Source: a virus
Reading direction: 5' to 3' (one strand)
Length of the DNA stretch: 5,630 nt
Virus record (IMG/VR): IMGVR_UViG_3300045988_012546
Positions 1-5,630 of this stretch are shown here, piece after piece (position 1 is the first letter of the stretch; each line of letters opens with the position of its first letter). The notes under the pieces were generated by a model. It worked only from the letters and a program-made list of their open reading frames with translations. It ran no database searches and had not been told where the DNA came from. The position numbers were made by a program, and so were the translations under genes.

Positions 1-55
1 TACTTGCACTCCCGATTGTTCCCTGCGCTCCGCTTGGAGTGCTTGCGCCGCCTTG
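1..55. repeat. Left copy of the exact 55-nt direct terminal repeat (identical to 5576-5630); circular-contig overlap
   Basis: The string tacttgcactcccgattgttccctgcgctccgcttggagtgcttgcgccgccttg occurs at both window ends. The minus-strand reading frame is continuous across the junction. Confidence 0.98.
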
Positions 56-3549: not shown

Positions 3550-3717
3550 TTATTCTCTTCTTCGACTCAGCTCCTTTTTTACTTCGTCGTGGATGTAGCC
3601 ACAGTGGTAGCTTACATCGTGACACGGGCATTTTTCGCAATCGCCTCTGCAGCTTGCCCATTTGTAGTTCATCCACTTCAAGGTTTCGGTGTCAAGTTCC
3701 TTAAATATGTTTTTCAT
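3550..3717 (-). CDS. Small Cys/His-rich protein, 55 aa (putative metal-binding; function unknown)
   Basis: MKNIFKELDTETLKWMNYKWASCRGDCEKCPCHDVSYHCGYIHDEVKKELSRRRE. ATG 3717 follows AAAGGGGA and lies about 22 nt downstream of the predicted transcription start of the promoter at 3746-3774. The Cys/His cluster is C-x3-C-x2-C-x-C-H-x4-H-C-x3-H. A terminator follows directly. Confidence 0.7.
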   Translation of the reverse strand: MKNIFKELDTETLKWMNYKWASCRGDCEKCPCHDVSYHCGYIHDEVKKELSRRRE

Positions 3718-3745: not shown

Positions 3746-3774
3746 ATTATCCCACAACTTTGTCTTTTTGTCAA
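3746..3774 (-). promoter_or_regulatory. Near-consensus sigma70-type promoter, probably the main promoter of the phage operon
   Basis: The minus strand reads TTGACA (3774..3769), a 17-nt spacer, then TGgGATAAT (extended -10; hexamer 3751..3746). Upstream is the A-rich CAAAAAAGTTTCAAAAAACTA, which resembles an UP element. Confidence 0.72.
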
Positions 3775-3799: not shown

Positions 3800-3839
3800 G
3801 TCATGCGGTAGGCGCGGTGCGCCGTGCGAAGAGCATGAC
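3800..3839. other. Nested GC-rich inverted repeat (hairpin in ssDNA, cruciform in the replicative form)
   Basis: Outer stem gtcatgc (3800-3806) pairs with gcatgac (3833-3839). Inner stem ggcgc (3811-3815) pairs with gcgcc (3819-3823) around the loop ggt. Confidence 0.6.
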
Positions 3840-3882
3840 GCAACTTTTCGGTTTCGCTCGCCGGACGGCCTTTATTTGCTTT

Positions 3883-3909
3883 TTTCAACACTTTCAACAC
3901 TTTCAACAG
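3883..3909 (+). repeat. Three tandem 9-bp repeats TTTCAACAC / TTTCAACAC / TTTCAACAG
   Basis: Read directly at 3883-3891, 3892-3900 and 3901-3909. The same TCAACA core recurs in the same orientation, with the extended words lying at 3957-3964, 3966-3972, 3989-3995 and 4050-4058. Confidence 0.9.
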
Positions 3910-3910
3910 G

Positions 3911-3919
3911 TTTTCCACA
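3911..3919 (+). promoter_or_regulatory. DnaA-box-like motif TTTTCCACA (fits TTWTNCACA)
   Basis: It directly follows the tandem repeats. Its CACAAAA part (3916-3922) can pair with TTTTGTG (3937-3943), as an alternative to the 3926-3945 hairpin. Confidence 0.3.
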
Positions 3920-3925
3920 AAATGT

Positions 3926-3945
3926 TGCACAAAGGTTTTTGTGCA
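3926..3945. other. Short hairpin tgcacaaa-ggtt-tttgtgca
   Basis: 8-bp perfect inverted repeat with a 4-nt loop, lying between the two DnaA-box motifs. One stem of this size is roughly what chance predicts for a genome this long. Confidence 0.45.
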
Positions 3946-3966
3946 TATTGCTACACTTTCAACAAT

Positions 3967-4050
3967 TCAACAAGTTATCCACAAAAGTATCAACATTAAA
4001 ATTAGCCAAAAAATATCGTTCCAAGGATAAGAATTCATAGTATTTAACAT
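3967..4050 (-). CDS. Candidate 27-aa hydrophobic peptide MLNTMNSYPWNDIFWLILMLILLWITC (speculative membrane-active peptide)
   Basis: Hand translation: ATG 4050..4048 with GGGAG (4062..4058) 7 nt upstream, TGA at 3969..3967. Residues 13-26 are uniformly hydrophobic or aromatic. It is below the ORF-track size cutoff. Confidence 0.3.
   Translation of the reverse strand: MLNTMNSYPWNDIFWLILMLILLWITC
3975..3983 (+). promoter_or_regulatory. Perfect DnaA-box consensus TTATCCACA
   Basis: Exact 9-mer match. It lies in a repeated context (CACTTTCAACA...TT[T/A]TCCACAAAA) shared with the 3911 motif, 64 nt away in the same orientation. Confidence 0.35.
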
Positions 4051-4061
4051 TTCAACACTCC

Positions 4062-4108
4062 CTACTACTACGACTACAACAAATTAATAATAAAATAATA
4101 ATAATACA
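4062..4108. repeat. Simple-sequence tract: (CTA)-type triplets (ctactactacgactac) followed by an (AAT)n AT-only stretch
   Basis: cctactactacgactacaac is followed by aaattaataataaaataataataata, about 30 nt that are almost purely A/T. Confidence 0.85.
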
Positions 4109-4148
4109 ATGCGCGTGTGCGCGCGATTACGTGTGCGCACGTGCATGT
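4109..4148. repeat. GC-rich alternating purine-pyrimidine block with an internal direct repeat and overlapping palindromes
   Basis: Strict Pu/Py alternation over 4109-4125 (17 nt) and 4128-4148 (21 nt). CGTGTGCGC occurs at 4114-4122 and 4130-4138. Palindromes are GTGCGCAC (4133-4140) and GCACGTGC (4137-4144). Confidence 0.85.
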
Positions 4149-4151
4149 CAA

Positions 4152-4205
4152 TATAAAACAAAAATACTCCGCCAAGTAGTCTTACTTGATAGTTACTTGG
4201 CGGAG
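4152..4205 (-). terminator. Strong rho-independent terminator after VP4; end of the phage transcription unit
   Basis: 12-bp perfect stem: ctccgccaagta (4167-4178) pairs with tacttggcggag (4194-4205), with a 15-nt loop. On the minus strand it is followed by TATTTTTGTTTTATAT. It starts 13 nt after the VP4 stop. Confidence 0.88.
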
Positions 4206-4217
4206 TGACACCACGTG

Positions 4218-5237: not shown

Positions 5238-5630
5238 TTATTTACCTCTCGGATTTATGCTCATATACCCTGTGGGCAAGTATCTTCTTGTACTTTCGAG
5301 TCTGTTTGCAAGTTCGTTTTTTGCTTTGTCTGCTACGGGTAAGGCTGCGAACTTTTCTTTAAGCTTGGCCGCGTTTTCCGCTGCCGTTTCGGCTATGGCC
5401 TCCATGTCTCCTTTGAGTCTTACCGGACTTGAGCTGCTCGACATGATAGCTTGCTGGATGCTCTGTGCTGCGTTTTCTGCGTGACTCCATGCTTCGCTGT
5501 GGCTACTCCAACTGCCGTCTTGTTTGATTCCCGGTAATGCTGTTGCTCCCAGTGCGCTGCTGGATGCCATACCCATACTTGCACTCCCGATTGTTCCCTG
5601 CGCTCCGCTTGGAGTGCTTGCGCCGCCTTG
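5238..5630 (-). CDS. VP2: VP2 minor capsid / DNA pilot protein, C-terminal portion (5576-5630 duplicates 1-55)
   Basis: The frame is open from the window end ([25 protein letters not shown]...) to TAA at 5240..5238. That stop directly abuts the VP4 ATG (TAAATG). Confidence 0.9.
   Translation of the reverse strand, partial: QGGASTPSGAQGTIGSASMGMASSSALGATALPGIKQDGSWSSHSEAWSHAENAAQSIQQAIMSSSSSPVRLKGDMEAIAETAAENAAKLKEKFAALPVADKAKNELANRLESTRRYLPTGYMSINPRGK
5576..5630. repeat. Right copy of the exact 55-nt direct terminal repeat (identical to 1-55)
   Basis: Character-by-character identity with 1-55. A 55-nt overlap is what a de Bruijn assembler using k=55 leaves on a circular molecule (inference). 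Confidence 0.98.

What the first reader, a model, noticed from the sequence alone, without database searches (positions are those of the whole stretch)
3883..4148. Origin-like control region: iteron-type repeats, two DnaA-box motifs, an AT-only tract and a GC block inside a microvirus
**What the sequence shows.**
- The only long region without a conventional gene lies between the VP4 terminator and the main promoter.
- Seven same-orientation copies of a TCAACA core fall within about 176 nt, three of them as perfect tandem 9-mers.
- There is one exact DnaA box, TTATCCACA (3975-3983), and one consensus-compatible box, TTTTCCACA (3911-3919). Both sit in a repeated context.
- These are followed by an almost pure A/T tract of about 30 nt and then a GC block.

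**Why it matters.**
- Repeats plus DnaA boxes plus an AT-rich unwinding element is the layout of iteron plasmid and chromosomal theta origins. It is not what is described for microvirus rolling-circle origins.
- Option 1: the double-stranded replicative form recruits host DnaA, giving episomal or carrier-state maintenance.
- Option 2: the ssDNA uses a DnaA-box hairpin as a DnaA-dependent primosome assembly site for complementary-strand synthesis. This has been described for the A-site hairpin of some plasmids. CACAAAA (3916-3922) can pair with TTTTGTG (3937-3943), which would put half of box 1 in a stem.
- Option 3: the repeats bind a phage-encoded regulator.

**Caveats.**
- A given 9-mer is expected about 0.04 times on both strands of 5.6 kb, but I looked for several known motifs.
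- The perfect box also lies inside the 27-codon mini-ORF.
Basis: partly seen in the sequence, partly recalled or inferred. Interest (0 to 1): 0.7.

Follow-up and report, generated by a model that had tools for sequence, protein, structure and literature searches.

The report
Chromosome-origin mimic in a gut microvirus
The main non-coding stretch of this small single-stranded-DNA gut phage is laid out like the part of a bacterial chromosome origin that the host initiator protein DnaA opens, which suggests this phage group borrows the host's own replication start signal.

Summary

- **What is there.** The window is a circular gokushovirus with all genes on the minus strand. Positions 3882-4110 (+ strand) hold about ten same-direction 9-mers (TTTTCAACA, some TTTTCCACA or TTATCCACA). 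These are followed by a 4-nt spacer, CTA CTA CTA CGA CTA CAA CAA, and the least stable AT tract in the genome.
The triplet block is a DnaA-trio array.
- **Bacterial comparison.** TTWTCCACA-N4-CTACTACTAC gave at least 120 bacterial hits, and 103 lie beside dnaA and/or dnaN.
- **Viral comparison.** The same motif in viral contigs is mostly in microvirus-sized contigs.
- **Family.** 157 distinct microvirus genomes carry the element with boxes at fixed positions, in either orientation relative to the genes. The unit consensus is the same in Rep lineages only 34% identical.
- **"Iterons" and "DnaA boxes" are one repeat.** The window's perfect box is not conserved. A Ruminococcus MAG and a human-gut Eubacteriales MAG have TTTTCAACA-rich origins between dnaA and dnaN.

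Best reading (0.6): a host-origin mimic that recruits DnaA to open the double-stranded replicative form. DnaA binding and the downstream role are inferred, not shown. No report was found in the searchable literature.

The parts
3882..3919 (+). Distal box cluster: TTTTCAACA (3882-3890), CTTTCAACA (3891-3899), CTTTCAACA (3900-3908) and TTTTCCACA (3911-3919, a strict DnaA-box match). All point toward the AT tract.
   Evidence: Sequence. Box positions in the window are listed. These are slots -179/-170/-161/-150 relative to the trios, and the slots are conserved across 157 genomes.
3926..3945 (.). Palindrome TGCACAAA-GGTT-TTTGTGCA between the distal and middle box clusters. It is lineage-specific: other lineages carry CGTCATTTTGACG at the same place.
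   Evidence: (inverted repeat I15), the alignment and the sequences. There is no covariation support. Its role is unknown.
3956..3995 (+). Middle box cluster: CTTTCAACA (3956-3964), AATTCAACA (3964-3972), TTATCCACA (3975-3983, a perfect DnaA box) and GTATCAACA (3987-3995).
   Evidence: These are slots -106/-98/-87/-75. Slot -87 is TTTTCAACA in 92 of 157 genomes and TTATCCACA in 21.
3996..4040 (.). Variable spacer of about 45 nt between the middle and proximal boxes. It contains the small palindrome TATC...GATA (4014-4029). The sequence differs between lineages, and several lineages have their own palindrome here.
   Evidence: Alignment, contexts.
4041..4057 (+). Proximal tandem boxes TATTTAACA (4041-4049) and ATTTCAACA (4049-4057), at an 8-nt period. 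In most relatives this pair reads TTTTCAAC-TTTTCCACA.
   Evidence: The proximal slot is TTTTCCACA in 92 of 157 genomes and ATTTCAACA in 19. Bacterial origins show the same tandem arrangement.
4058..4061 (+). 4-nt spacer CTCC between the proximal box and the first trio.
   Evidence: The spacer is always 4 nt; TTGC, TACT, GCCC and CTCC are the commonest forms. It corresponds to the roughly 4-bp gap, earlier called the GC-rich region, in the published BUS definition (PMC8287927).
4062..4082 (+). DnaA-trio block CTA CTA CTA CGA CTA CAA CAA, which reads 3'-GAT GAT GAT GCT GAT GTT GTT-5' on the minus strand. This is the most conserved block of the element.
   Evidence: It is nearly invariant across 157 genomes apart from the 2 nt of the fourth triplet.
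It has the same strand sense and near-identical sequence to the C. difficile oriC2 trios CACCTACTACTATTACTACTATGA and the B. subtilis CTACTATTACTTCTACTA.
The motif box-N4-CTACTACTAC lies beside dnaA and/or dnaN in 103 of 120 bacterial hits.
4083..4110 (.). AT tract (a single C at 4107). This is the candidate DNA unwinding element.
   Evidence: It holds the least stable 25-mers of the genome. An AT tract follows the trios in the family (median 13 nt, range 1-29) and in most of the bacterial origins.
4111..4144 (.). GC block of alternating purine/pyrimidine with short hairpin potential. It is lineage-specific and probably a boundary of the unwound region. It is not a universal part of the element.
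   Evidence: other lineages have different GC hairpins, or only the VP4 terminator, at this place. The Eubacteriales origin L224 also has a GC run after its AT tract.
4166..4206 (-). VP4 terminator hairpin (13-bp perfect stem) followed by a T-rich run on the minus strand. It flanks the element and is not part of it.
   Evidence: (inverted repeat I3), sequence.
3746..3774 (-). Sigma-70-type promoter TTGACA-17-GATAAT with an extended -10 TG, driving the small ORFs, VP5, VP3 and VP1. It flanks the element and lies outside the conserved core.
   Evidence: 11 of 12 matches. Conservation of the element ends near 3882.

Best explanation
The region 3882-4110 is a copy, or mimic, of the unwinding module of a bacterial chromosomal origin (the 'basal unwinding system' of the dnaA-dnaN origin in Firmicutes). 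It sits in the genome of a gut gokushovirus.

**Proposed mechanism, on the double-stranded replicative form**
1. Host DnaA binds the one-directional array of about ten 9-mers. These are TTTTCAACA-type boxes, the box variant seen in some Ruminococcus/Eubacteriales origins, plus a few canonical TTWTCCACA boxes.
2. From the proximal tandem boxes (4041-4057), across the 4-nt spacer, ATP-DnaA extends as a filament onto the DnaA-trios of the minus strand (4062-4082).
3. This melts the adjacent AT tract (4083-4110).
4. The opened DNA is then used to load the host helicase and start replication of the replicative form without needing a Rep nick. That could serve early amplification or plasmid-like carriage.

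**Shown here**
- The anatomy of the element.
- Its conservation, and its independence of orientation and of Rep lineage.
- Its equivalence to motifs that mark oriC in bacteria.

**Inferred**
- DnaA binding, unwinding, helicase loading and the biological purpose.
For: 1. **Anatomy matches the published BUS definition.** That definition is a DnaA box, an optional tandem box, a spacer of up to 16 bp that includes a gap of about 4 bp, at least 3 trios of consensus 3'-GAT-5', and an AT-rich region downstream (window sequence).
2. **Same sequence and strand sense as characterised origins.** The trio block resembles C. difficile oriC2 and the B. subtilis strand opposite the trios.
3. **The motif marks oriC in bacteria.** TTWTCCACA-N4-CTACTACTAC gave at least 120 bacterial hits against about 9 expected (my estimate). 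Of these, 73 lie between dnaA and dnaN and 30 more lie beside one of the two. Pfam confirmed the flanking genes for one locus.
4. **In viruses the motif is mostly in microvirus-sized contigs.** 105 stretches matched; of the 80 listed, 70 are 4-7 kb contigs.
5. **Fixed architecture.** 157 distinct genomes have boxes at slots -179, -170, -161, -150, -106, -98, -87, -75, -21 and -13. The median is 9 forward and 0 reverse boxes, and the trios are nearly invariant.
6. **No covariation with Rep.** The unit consensus is TTTTCAACA in all four VP4 lineages, from above 85% to below 40% identity. This points to a conserved host factor rather than the fast-evolving Rep.
7. **The box variant exists in real chromosomal origins.**
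   - A Ruminococcus MAG (L191) has 13 forward TTTCAACA in its dnaA-dnaN spacer, followed by TTTTCCACA-GCCC-CTACTACTAC.
   - A human-gut Eubacteriales MAG (L224) has TTTCAAC-TTTTCCACA-N4-CTACTACTAC followed by an AT tract and a GC run.
   - L146 continues its trios as CTA CTA CTA CAA CAA, like the phage.
8. **Orientation-independent.** The element is inverted in 18 of 157 genomes, including in-place inversions in L089 and L017. This fits a duplex-level function.
9. **Not RNA, not coding, not a folded single strand**.
10. **Weakest duplex.** The AT tract is the least stable stretch in the genome.
Against: - **No experiment.** DnaA binding to TTTTCAACA is inferred only from its clustering in two or three MAG origins.
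- **The window's own proximal box is weak.** ATTTCAACA has 3 mismatches to TTATCCACA. The window therefore fails the strict BUS rule (2 mismatches or fewer) unless the host's box variant is taken as the standard.
- **Some elements lack strict boxes.** 25 of 92 elements have no TTWTNCACA box at all.
- **No matching change in DnaA was found.** A Tyr at the position of E. coli H439 occurs in the CAACA-type bacteria, but also in many CCACA-type bacteria.
- **The distal triplets do not fit.** CAA CAA does not match the trio consensus, yet it is invariant in the phages, so something else may also constrain that block.
- **No known need.** A rolling-circle phage with its own Rep has no known requirement for DnaA.
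- **The Rep origin is unmapped.** The rolling-circle origin of gokushoviruses has not been mapped as far as I know, so an overlap with the Rep nick site cannot be excluded.
- **Host unproven.** No prophage or CRISPR link was obtained.
Confidence: 0.6

Rival explanations
1. The element is the rolling-circle double-strand origin of the phage. In this reading VP4 (the HUH Rep) binds the 9-mer repeats as its iterons. It then nicks within the invariant block or AT tract, as CRESS-virus and pMV158-type origins combine iterons with a nick site.
For: - It lies next to the VP4 gene in every genome, and the AT-tract end always faces VP4.
- TTGTTGTAGnnGTAGTAGTAG is invariant, and its distal part (CAACAA) is not explained by the trio consensus.
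- The mosaic junction falls at this block. Recombination hot spots at the origin are known for geminiviruses (my own knowledge).
- Most relatives read AACTTG on the coding strand, recalling the phiX174 origin CAACTTG/ATA (from my own knowledge).
Against: - The repeat unit is identical across VP4 lineages only 34-57% identical to the window's, so there is no Rep-iteron covariation.
- Only about 39 of 2228 phage records with a VP4 homologue carry the element, so it cannot be the general gokushovirus Rep origin.
- It is inverted relative to the genes in 18 of 157 genomes. If it were the Rep origin, those phages would package the non-coding strand, which is unknown in Microviridae.
- The AACTTG match is not conserved. 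The window itself reads AATTTG, and the base before TTGTTG varies.
- Bacterial origins explain the whole layout, including the CAA CAA continuation in L146.
Confidence: 0.13
2. The array binds host DnaA, but its purpose is not initiation. It could be a DnaA sink that perturbs host initiation, like datA or the DnaA-box clusters of B. subtilis. Or it could be a DnaA-responsive switch that couples the nearby phage promoter to the host's growth state.
For: - About ten boxes sit on a multicopy replicative form.
- The array lies about 110 nt upstream of the main promoter at 3774-3746 in the window's lineage.
- DnaA is a known transcription factor, and box clusters outside oriC regulate initiation in B. 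subtilis (titles and abstracts listed: PMC3245932, PMC13438810).
Against: - Binding alone does not need trios at a fixed 4-nt distance, nor an AT tract, yet these are the most conserved features.
- The position relative to promoters is not kept. In the roughly 35% VP4 clade the element is inverted and moved to just upstream of VP4.
Confidence: 0.1
3. The element is a complementary-strand (single-strand) origin. In this reading the packaged strand folds so that a DnaA box becomes double-stranded and nucleates a DnaA-dependent primosome. Alternatively, DnaA binds the single-stranded trios directly.
For: - In the main lineage the coding-sense strand, which is the packaged strand in known Microviridae, carries 5'-TAG TAG TAG. 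That is the strand DnaA binds as single-stranded DNA.
- Some lineages have one reversed box at the far end of the array that could pair with a forward box.
Against: - The packaged-sense strand folds no better than shuffled sequence: z +0.94, with 161 of 200 shuffles at least as stable.
- The consensus structure energy is -0.19 kcal/mol with 0 covarying pairs.
- Reverse-oriented boxes have a median of 0 per element.
- Single-strand origins depend on orientation, yet 18 of 157 elements are inverted.
Confidence: 0.05
4. The repeats are operators for a phage-encoded DNA-binding protein that controls transcription or packaging. Candidates are VP5 or the Cys-rich 55-aa product of 3717-3550.
For: - Small, possibly DNA-binding, proteins are encoded just downstream. 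VP5 matches Phage_ORF5 and a PHROG annotated as DNA binding.
- Lineage-specific palindromes lie between the box clusters.
Against: - The same unit and the same trio block are kept in phages whose proteins are only about 35-55% identical.
- The same motif marks oriC in bacteria that carry no phage genes.
- This reading does not explain the trios or the AT tract.
Confidence: 0.04

Closest known systems
Basal unwinding system (BUS) of bacterial chromosomal origins: B. subtilis incC (DnaA-boxes 6 and 7 plus DnaA-trios) and C. difficile oriC2 (Richardson 2016 and 2019; Pelliciari 2021, PMC8287927; PMC7561715)
   Same: - Tandem same-direction DnaA-type boxes, a 4-nt spacer, CTA-repeat trios on the box strand (3'-GAT-5' on the other strand), an AT-rich unwinding tract, and further boxes upstream.
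- Near-identical trio sequence.
- The diagnostic motif box-N4-CTACTACTAC lies beside dnaA and/or dnaN in 103 of 120 bacterial hits.
   Different: - It sits in a 5.6-kb single-stranded-DNA phage that has its own HUH Rep and no dnaA or dnaN.
- Most boxes are TTTTCAACA rather than TTATCCACA.
- The window's proximal box is weak.
- The distal triplets CAA CAA are invariant.
- It occurs in either orientation relative to the genes.
- Its function has not been tested.
Iteron-plasmid theta origins that contain DnaA boxes (pSC101, P1, F, RK2, R6K)
   Same: - Direct repeats, DnaA boxes and an AT-rich region in one short non-coding stretch of a small replicon.
- Reliance on host DnaA.
   Different: - Those origins need a plasmid-encoded initiator that binds 17-22-bp iterons distinct from the DnaA boxes.
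- Here no such gene exists, the repeat is a 9-mer of DnaA-box type, and DnaA-trios are present.
- No similar DNA was found in 72,556 plasmids.
phiX174-type rolling-circle origin (30-bp origin in gene A, CAACTTG/ATATTAATAAC), and the iteron-plus-nick-site origins of CRESS viruses and pMV158
   Same: - Next to, or inside, the Rep gene.
- An AT-rich stretch beside a conserved short sequence.
- Repeats nearby.
   Different: - No covariation with Rep.
- Absent from about 98% of relatives that have a homologous Rep.
- Orientation is not fixed.
- The AACTTG resemblance is not conserved.
DnaA-dependent single-strand initiation site (the A-site hairpin or ABC primosome of R6K and pBR322-type plasmids)
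   Same: - A DnaA-box sequence on a replicon that passes through a single-stranded stage.
   Different: - No stable or conserved hairpin places a box in a duplex.
- Orientation is not fixed.
DnaA-box clusters outside oriC (E. coli datA; the B. subtilis DBCs)
   Same: - A dense cluster of DnaA-type boxes outside the chromosomal origin.
   Different: - As far as I know, those clusters are not described with DnaA-trios at a fixed spacing plus an unwinding tract. This element has both, and they are its most conserved parts.

Membership tests
Chromosomal-origin basal unwinding system (BUS; definition in Pelliciari 2021) | A DnaA box with 2 mismatches or fewer to TTATCCACA (or to the species-specific box), 0-16 bp upstream of the first trio | tested here: inconclusive
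   - Window: the proximal box ATTTCAACA (4049-4057) has 3 mismatches to TTATCCACA, but only 1 to the TTTTCAACA variant seen in the Ruminococcus/Eubacteriales origins.
- Family: the proximal slot has a CCAC core in 108 of 157 genomes; 92 are exactly TTTTCCACA, which has 1 mismatch.
Chromosomal-origin basal unwinding system (BUS) | The box points toward the trios: 5'-box-spacer-CTA repeats-3' on one strand, so that the trios read 3'-GAT-5' on the other strand | tested here: met
   The strand sense is the same as in 120 bacterial loci, the C. difficile trios and the B. subtilis strand opposite the trios. Window sequence.
Chromosomal-origin basal unwinding system (BUS) | A short gap of about 4 bp between the proximal box and the first trio (earlier called the GC-rich region) | tested here: met
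   The window has CTCC at 4058-4061. The gap is always 4 nt in 157 genomes.
Chromosomal-origin basal unwinding system (BUS) | At least three consecutive DnaA-trios (middle A, consensus 3'-GAT-5') | tested here: met
   The minus strand of 4062-4082 reads 3'-GAT GAT GAT GCT GAT GTT GTT-5'. That is three perfect trios plus a fifth. The block is nearly invariant in the family.
Chromosomal-origin basal unwinding system (BUS) | An AT-rich unwinding element directly beyond the trios | tested here: met
   4083-4110 holds the least stable 25-mers of the genome. An AT tract is present across the family.
Chromosomal-origin basal unwinding system (BUS) | Located at the chromosomal origin, typically beside dnaA and/or dnaN | tested here: not met
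   The element lies in a microvirus genome between VP4 and the structural-gene promoter, with no dnaA or dnaN. It is therefore a mimic or captured copy, not a chromosomal origin.
Chromosomal-origin basal unwinding system (BUS) | DnaA binds the boxes and, with ATP, separates the strands at the trios | not testable with these tools
   This needs EMSA or footprinting and a strand-separation assay with the host's DnaA.
Iteron-plasmid theta origin | A replicon-encoded initiator that binds 17-22-bp iterons distinct from the DnaA boxes | tested here: not met
   The seven minus-strand ORFs tested gave only Rep (HUH type), capsid F, scaffold and ORF5 families, or no match. The repeat is a 9-mer of DnaA-box type.
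Rolling-circle double-strand origin of the phage's own Rep | Present wherever the homologous Rep is present, and repeats covary with Rep | tested here: not met
   About 39 of 2228 records with a VP4 homologue carry it. The unit consensus is identical in all VP4 lineages.
Rolling-circle double-strand origin of the phage's own Rep | Fixed orientation relative to the packaged (coding-sense) strand | tested here: inconclusive
   The element is inverted in 18 of 157 genomes. However, which strand those phages package is unknown.
DnaA-dependent single-strand initiation site (A-site hairpin) | A stable hairpin on the packaged strand that makes a DnaA box double-stranded | tested here: not met
   Folding z-score is +0.94. 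The alignment has no covarying pairs. The median number of reverse boxes is 0.
Structured RNA or protein-coding element | An Rfam match, a conserved structure, or a conserved open frame | tested here: not met
   There is no Rfam hit at E up to 1 and no tRNA. No consensus structure was found. Every frame has stops in most genomes, and the 27-aa mini-ORF is present in only 27 of 157.

The most novel reading that the evidence does not exclude
A clade of gut gokushoviruses has a second replication mode driven by the host initiator. In this reading the double-stranded replicative form fires like a mini-chromosome from a captured oriC unwinding module. That would allow plasmid-like, cell-cycle-coupled carriage without an integrase, alongside Rep-driven rolling-circle production of virion DNA. 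A variant of this reading is that DnaA-opened DNA is the substrate the HUH Rep needs for nicking. Either way, the box variant of the element would name the host (Ruminococcus/Eubacteriales-like Clostridia) for phages that have never been cultured.
Probability: 0.35. Interest if true: 0.9.

Novelty: new variant of a known kind. Interest (0 to 1): 0.8.

Why it matters
- **A new dependence on the host.** Microviruses are textbook rolling-circle replicons whose initiation depends on their own Rep. A conserved, chromosome-type DnaA unwinding module in more than 150 of them would mean some single-stranded-DNA phages also use the host's master initiator.
- **Testable consequences.** It gives a concrete route to the long-suspected carrier or persistent states of gut microviruses that lack integrases. 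It also offers a natural minimal BUS for replication biochemists.
- **Host prediction.** Matching the phage's DnaA-box variant and trios to bacterial origins could assign hosts to uncultured gut phages.
- **Bacterial origins.** It flags TTTTCAACA as a probable DnaA-box variant in some Ruminococcus/Eubacteriales origins.

Tried and rejected
- **Rfam and tRNA scans.** The Rfam scan of the whole window at E up to 1 and the tRNA scan found nothing.
- **Structured RNA or ssDNA.** RNAalifold gave -0.19 kcal/mol with no covarying pairs. DNA folding of the packaged-sense strand gave z +0.94. Rejected.
- **Protein-coding.** No frame is open across the family, and the 27-aa mini-ORF is confined to near relatives. 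Rejected.
- **phiX-like nick site AACTTG.** It is not conserved. The window has AATTTG, and the base before TTGTTG varies. Kept only as a weak point for the Rep-origin rival.
- **XerCD/dif-like site.** Considered by eye early on (ATTTAACAT, GTGCGCA). It was dropped because those bases fall in a box slot and in the lineage-specific GC block.
- **Spo0A box** (TTCGACA, from my own knowledge). The unit TTCAACA lacks the conserved CG. Rejected by inspection.
- **Specificity change in DnaA.** Tyr at the position of E. coli H439 occurs in the CAACA-type bacteria, but also in CCACA-type cyanobacteria and others. Inconclusive.
- **Plasmid homologues.** None were found.
- **Prophage or host link.** No microvirus genes occur in the 120 bacterial loci.
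- **Relatives without the element.** L334 and L335 lack it. L333 is a partial record that breaks exactly where the element should be, so it is uninformative.
- **Literature.** Searches for Microviridae or gokushovirus combined with DnaA box, DnaA or oriC, and for DnaA-trio with phage, returned nothing relevant. Fujikawa 2003 was not available.
Full report
**1. Setting**

The window is a complete circular gokushovirus genome of about 5575 nt; positions 1-55 repeat at 5576-5630. All genes lie on the minus strand:
- VP4/Rep at 5237-4218, matching REP_ORF2-G2P and phrog_942.
- VP1 at 2284-587, matching Phage_F.
- VP3 at 2832-2281, matching Chlamy_scaf.
- VP5 at 2995-2753, matching Phage_ORF5.
- Several small ORFs.

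The only long non-coding stretch runs from the VP4 stop to the ATG at 3717. It contains:
- the VP4 terminator hairpin (4166-4206);
- the finding itself;
- a near-consensus promoter, TTGACA-17-GATAAT, at 3774-3746 on the minus strand.

**2.

- Seven TCAACA cores lie on the + strand between 3885 and 4057.
- TTATCCACA is at 3975 and TTTTCCACA at 3911.
- An A/T tract spans 4083-4110 and a GC block spans 4111-4144.
- Using the fuller unit TTWTCMACA with up to 1 mismatch, there are 8 forward copies in 176 nt. The rest of the genome has 3 forward and 5 reverse copies.
- The AT tract holds the least stable 25-mers of the genome: dG -20.2 against a mean of -33.0, sd 3.0.

**3. It is a conserved element, not a local oddity**

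- Megablast of the genome against GenBank phages finds many gokushoviruses that match the window only here, covering 1-6% of the genome.
- A sensitive search with the region finds 39 records.
- The conserved core is window 3882-4094.
- A 13-genome alignment shows that the repeated unit is TGTTGAAAA on the coding strand, which is TTTTCAACA on the + strand.
- The same alignment shows that the most conserved block is TTGTTGTAGnnGTAGTAGTAG (window 4083-4062).
- Pattern scans of IMG/VR, added to the GenBank records, gave 157 distinct microvirus genomes with the element.

**4. What the invariant block is**

Read on the + strand, the window has this layout:
- tandem boxes TATTTAACA and ATTTCAACA (4041-4057);
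- the spacer CTCC;
- CTA CTA CTA CGA CTA CAA CAA (4062-4082);
- the AT tract.

Most relatives read TTTTCAAC-TTTTCCACA, then 4 nt, then CTACTACTACnnCTACAACAA, then an AT tract.

This is the layout of the basal unwinding system of bacterial chromosomal origins. That system is defined as a DnaA box, an optional tandem box, a gap of about 4 bp, at least three DnaA-trios (3'-GAT-5' on the other strand), and an AT-rich unwinding element (PMC8287927).

Two characterised origins have nearly the same trio sequence in the same strand sense:
- The C. difficile oriC2 trio sequence is 5'-CACCTACTACTATTACTACTATGA-3' (PMC7561715).
- The B. subtilis strand opposite the trios is 5'-CTACTATTACTTCTACTA-3' (PMC10201434).

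**5. Independent test in bacteria**

I scanned one genome per bacterial species for TTWTCCACA-N4-CTACTACTAC.
I estimate about 9 matches by chance from the pattern's information content and the size of the collection.
- 73 hits lie between dnaA and dnaN in the expected orientation. 19 more lie just upstream of dnaN, and 11 just downstream of dnaA.
- Pfam confirmed DnaA and the beta clamp for one locus.
- None of the 120 loci contains microvirus genes.

So in bacteria this motif essentially marks the chromosomal origin. The same scan of 2.9 million viral contigs gave 105 stretches. Of the 80 listed, 70 are 4-7 kb, microvirus-sized contigs.

**6. The 'iterons' and the 'DnaA boxes' are one repeat**

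Across the 157 genomes the boxes sit at fixed distances from the trios:
- a distal cluster at -179, -170, -161 and -150;
- a gap with a lineage-specific palindrome;
- a middle cluster at -106, -98, -87 and -75;
- a variable spacer of about 50 nt;
- a proximal pair at -21 and -13.

The median is 9 forward and 0 reverse boxes. CAACA cores outnumber CCACA cores five to one. CCACA appears mainly at slots -13, -150, -87 and -161.

The window's perfect TTATCCACA sits in slot -87, where 92 genomes have TTTTCAACA. In the unbiased subset, 25 of 92 elements have no strict TTWTNCACA box. What is conserved is the TTTTCAACA-type array.

**7. Is TTTTCAACA a DnaA box?**

However, three of the bacterial origins found are informative:
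- **L191, a rumen Ruminococcus MAG.** It has 13 forward TTTCAACA in its 613-nt dnaA-dnaN spacer, against 2 TTWTCCACA. These are followed by TTTTCCACA-GCCC-CTACTACTAC.
- **L224, a Hadza-gut Eubacteriales MAG.** It mixes TTTTCAACA and TTTTCCACA. It has TTTCAAC-TTTTCCACA-N4-CTACTACTAC followed by an AT tract and a GC run.
- **L146, another Ruminococcus MAG.** It continues its trios as CTA CTA CTA CAA CAA, as the phages do.

Other clostridial origins use TTATCAAC as the upstream tandem box. Across the 120 loci, CAACA-type boxes are about 8-fold enriched upstream of the trios.

The simplest reading is that the phage array is written in the DnaA-box variant of a Ruminococcus/Eubacteriales-like host. 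I looked for a matching change in the DNA-contacting helix of DnaA. Tyr at the position of E. coli H439 is present in the CAACA-type bacteria, but it is not specific to them (residue roles from PMC5043019). That test is inconclusive.

**8. Evidence that separates the explanations**

a) **No covariation with Rep.** The unit consensus is TTTTCAACA in all four VP4 lineages, from above 85% to below 40% identity to the window's VP4. Rep-specific iterons would be expected to covary with Rep. A conserved host protein explains the constancy.

b) **Not universal.** 2228 phage records have a VP4 homologue, and about 39 have the element. It is an accessory module of a few gut lineages, not the general gokushovirus Rep origin.

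c) **Orientation.**
   - The box strand is the template strand in 139 genomes and the coding strand in 18.
   - In the clade with about 35% VP4 identity, the element is inverted and sits just upstream of VP4.
   - In L089 and L017 it is flipped in place downstream of VP4.
   - If these phages package the coding-sense strand, as known Microviridae do, this argues for a function on duplex DNA.

d) **Modular exchange.** L015, L030, L032 and L131 have VP4 only 45% identical to the window's. Yet their box half is 93-95% identical to the window's, and their AT-tract side is unrelated to it. The junction is at the trios.

e) **Not RNA, not coding, not a folded single strand**.

**9. Mechanism proposed**

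On the replicative form:
1. Host DnaA occupies the box array.
2. ATP-DnaA extends from the proximal tandem boxes onto the minus-strand trios.
3. This melts the AT tract.
4. In Firmicutes the CTA strand also supplies the 5'-TnnT-3' motifs recognised by DnaD. Helicase loading and replication of the duplex circle would follow.

Shown here:
- the anatomy, the conservation and the equivalence to origin motifs;
- the lack of coupling to Rep and to orientation.

Inferred:
- DnaA binding, opening and helicase loading;
- the purpose, which could be early amplification of the replicative form or plasmid-like carriage.

A variant I cannot exclude is that DnaA-opened DNA serves the HUH Rep, which cleaves only single-stranded DNA. 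The invariance of the distal CAA CAA triplets leaves room for a second constraint on that block.

**10. Comparison and novelty**

- It works like, and looks like, a chromosomal-origin BUS.
- It is not a chromosomal origin, since there is no dnaA or dnaN context.
- The window's own proximal box meets the published rule only if the host's box variant is used as the standard.
- It is not an iteron-plasmid origin. There is no plasmid-type initiator, the units are 9-mers, and no plasmid match was found.
- I found no report of DnaA boxes, DnaA-trios or oriC-like modules in Microviridae in the searchable literature.

I rate it a new variant of a known kind.

**11. Limits**

- There is no experiment.
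- Host assignment rests on similarity of origin sequence in three MAGs.
- The family sample was collected with patterns that required the trios or the box plus trios. Conservation of those exact bases is therefore partly built in. Conservation of slot positions, spacer length, box direction and the distal triplets was not built in.
- The gokushovirus Rep nick site has not been mapped, as far as I know.

Noticed in passing
window 1-55 and 5576-5630: The two ends of the window are identical, so the sequence is a circular genome of about 5575 nt. VP2 runs across the junction, starting near 540 on the minus strand, continuing through position 1, and ending at 5238.
   Followed up: partly
window 3926-3945; same place in L027, L035 and others: A perfect palindrome, TGCACAAA-GGTT-TTTGTGCA, sits between the distal and middle box clusters. 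Other lineages carry a different palindrome (CGTCATTTTGACG) at the same place. A palindrome is kept while its sequence is replaced. This could be a site for a dimeric regulator or a cruciform.
   Followed up: partly
window 3996-4040; same place in relatives: The roughly 50-nt spacer between the middle and proximal boxes is the only fast-evolving part of the element. Even so, most lineages have a short palindrome there that often contains ACGTT or AACG. Examples are GTGCTTTTTCTT...AAGAAAAAGCAC with a 12-bp stem in KT264790, ACGCTTTAGCGT, and AACGTAGTAACGTT.
   Followed up: no
window 3967-4050, minus strand: A 27-codon hydrophobic mini-ORF (MLNTMNSYPWNDIFWLILMLILLWITC) overlaps the boxes. A similarly placed ATG ORF of at least 20 aa occurs in 27 of 157 genomes, so it is unlikely to be the reason for conservation.
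   Followed up: yes
window 3550-3717, minus strand; L333 31-198: The first ORF after the promoter encodes a 55-aa Cys-rich protein (C-x3-C-x2-C-x-C ... H-C). It has no Pfam or PHROG match, but it is conserved in a relative with only 47% VP4 identity. It may be a zinc-binding small protein.
   Followed up: partly
window 4111-4144; L224 after its AT tract: The GC block consists of alternating purine/pyrimidine (CG/TG) repeats with Z-DNA or cruciform potential. It is lineage-specific in the phages. A GC run also follows the AT tract in the Eubacteriales chromosomal origin L224.
   Followed up: partly
L015, L030, L032, L131 compared with the window and L008: These are mosaic elements. Their box half is 93-95% identical to the window's, although VP4 is only 45% identical. 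Their AT-tract side is unrelated to the window's and closer to the L008 lineage for L015 and L030. The junction is at the trio block.
   Followed up: yes
L089 (trios near 1722) and L017 (trios at 2083-2103): In these genomes the whole element is inverted in place, downstream of VP4. Their VP4 lineage otherwise has the window's orientation.
   Followed up: partly
L253, L260, L328 (IMG/VR contigs of 17-41 kb); L173 and L219 (two places on one Prevotella MAG contig): The sequence GAAATGTTGAG-TTTTCCACA-GACC-CTACTACTAC-TATTAGTATTAC is identical in all of these. It occurs in larger viral contigs and twice in a Prevotella MAG contig, with no dnaA or dnaN nearby. Other phages or prophages may therefore carry BUS-like modules too.
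   Followed up: no
L191 489-715: The Ruminococcus MAG has a second small cluster of four forward TTTTCAACA about 3 kb upstream of dnaA, away from the dnaA-dnaN spacer. This may be an extra DnaA-box cluster.
   Followed up: no
window 3800-3839: An imperfect GC-rich inverted repeat (GTCATGCGGTAGGCGCGG / CCGTGCGAAGAGCATGAC) lies between the box array and the promoter. It is outside the conserved core, and its role is unknown.
   Followed up: no
L333 (MG945199), record end: This 'partial genome' record ends exactly at the GC hairpin that precedes the element in the related L003 and L007 genomes. Repeat-rich origin regions may be a common break point in microvirus assemblies, which would make the element under-counted.
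   Followed up: partly
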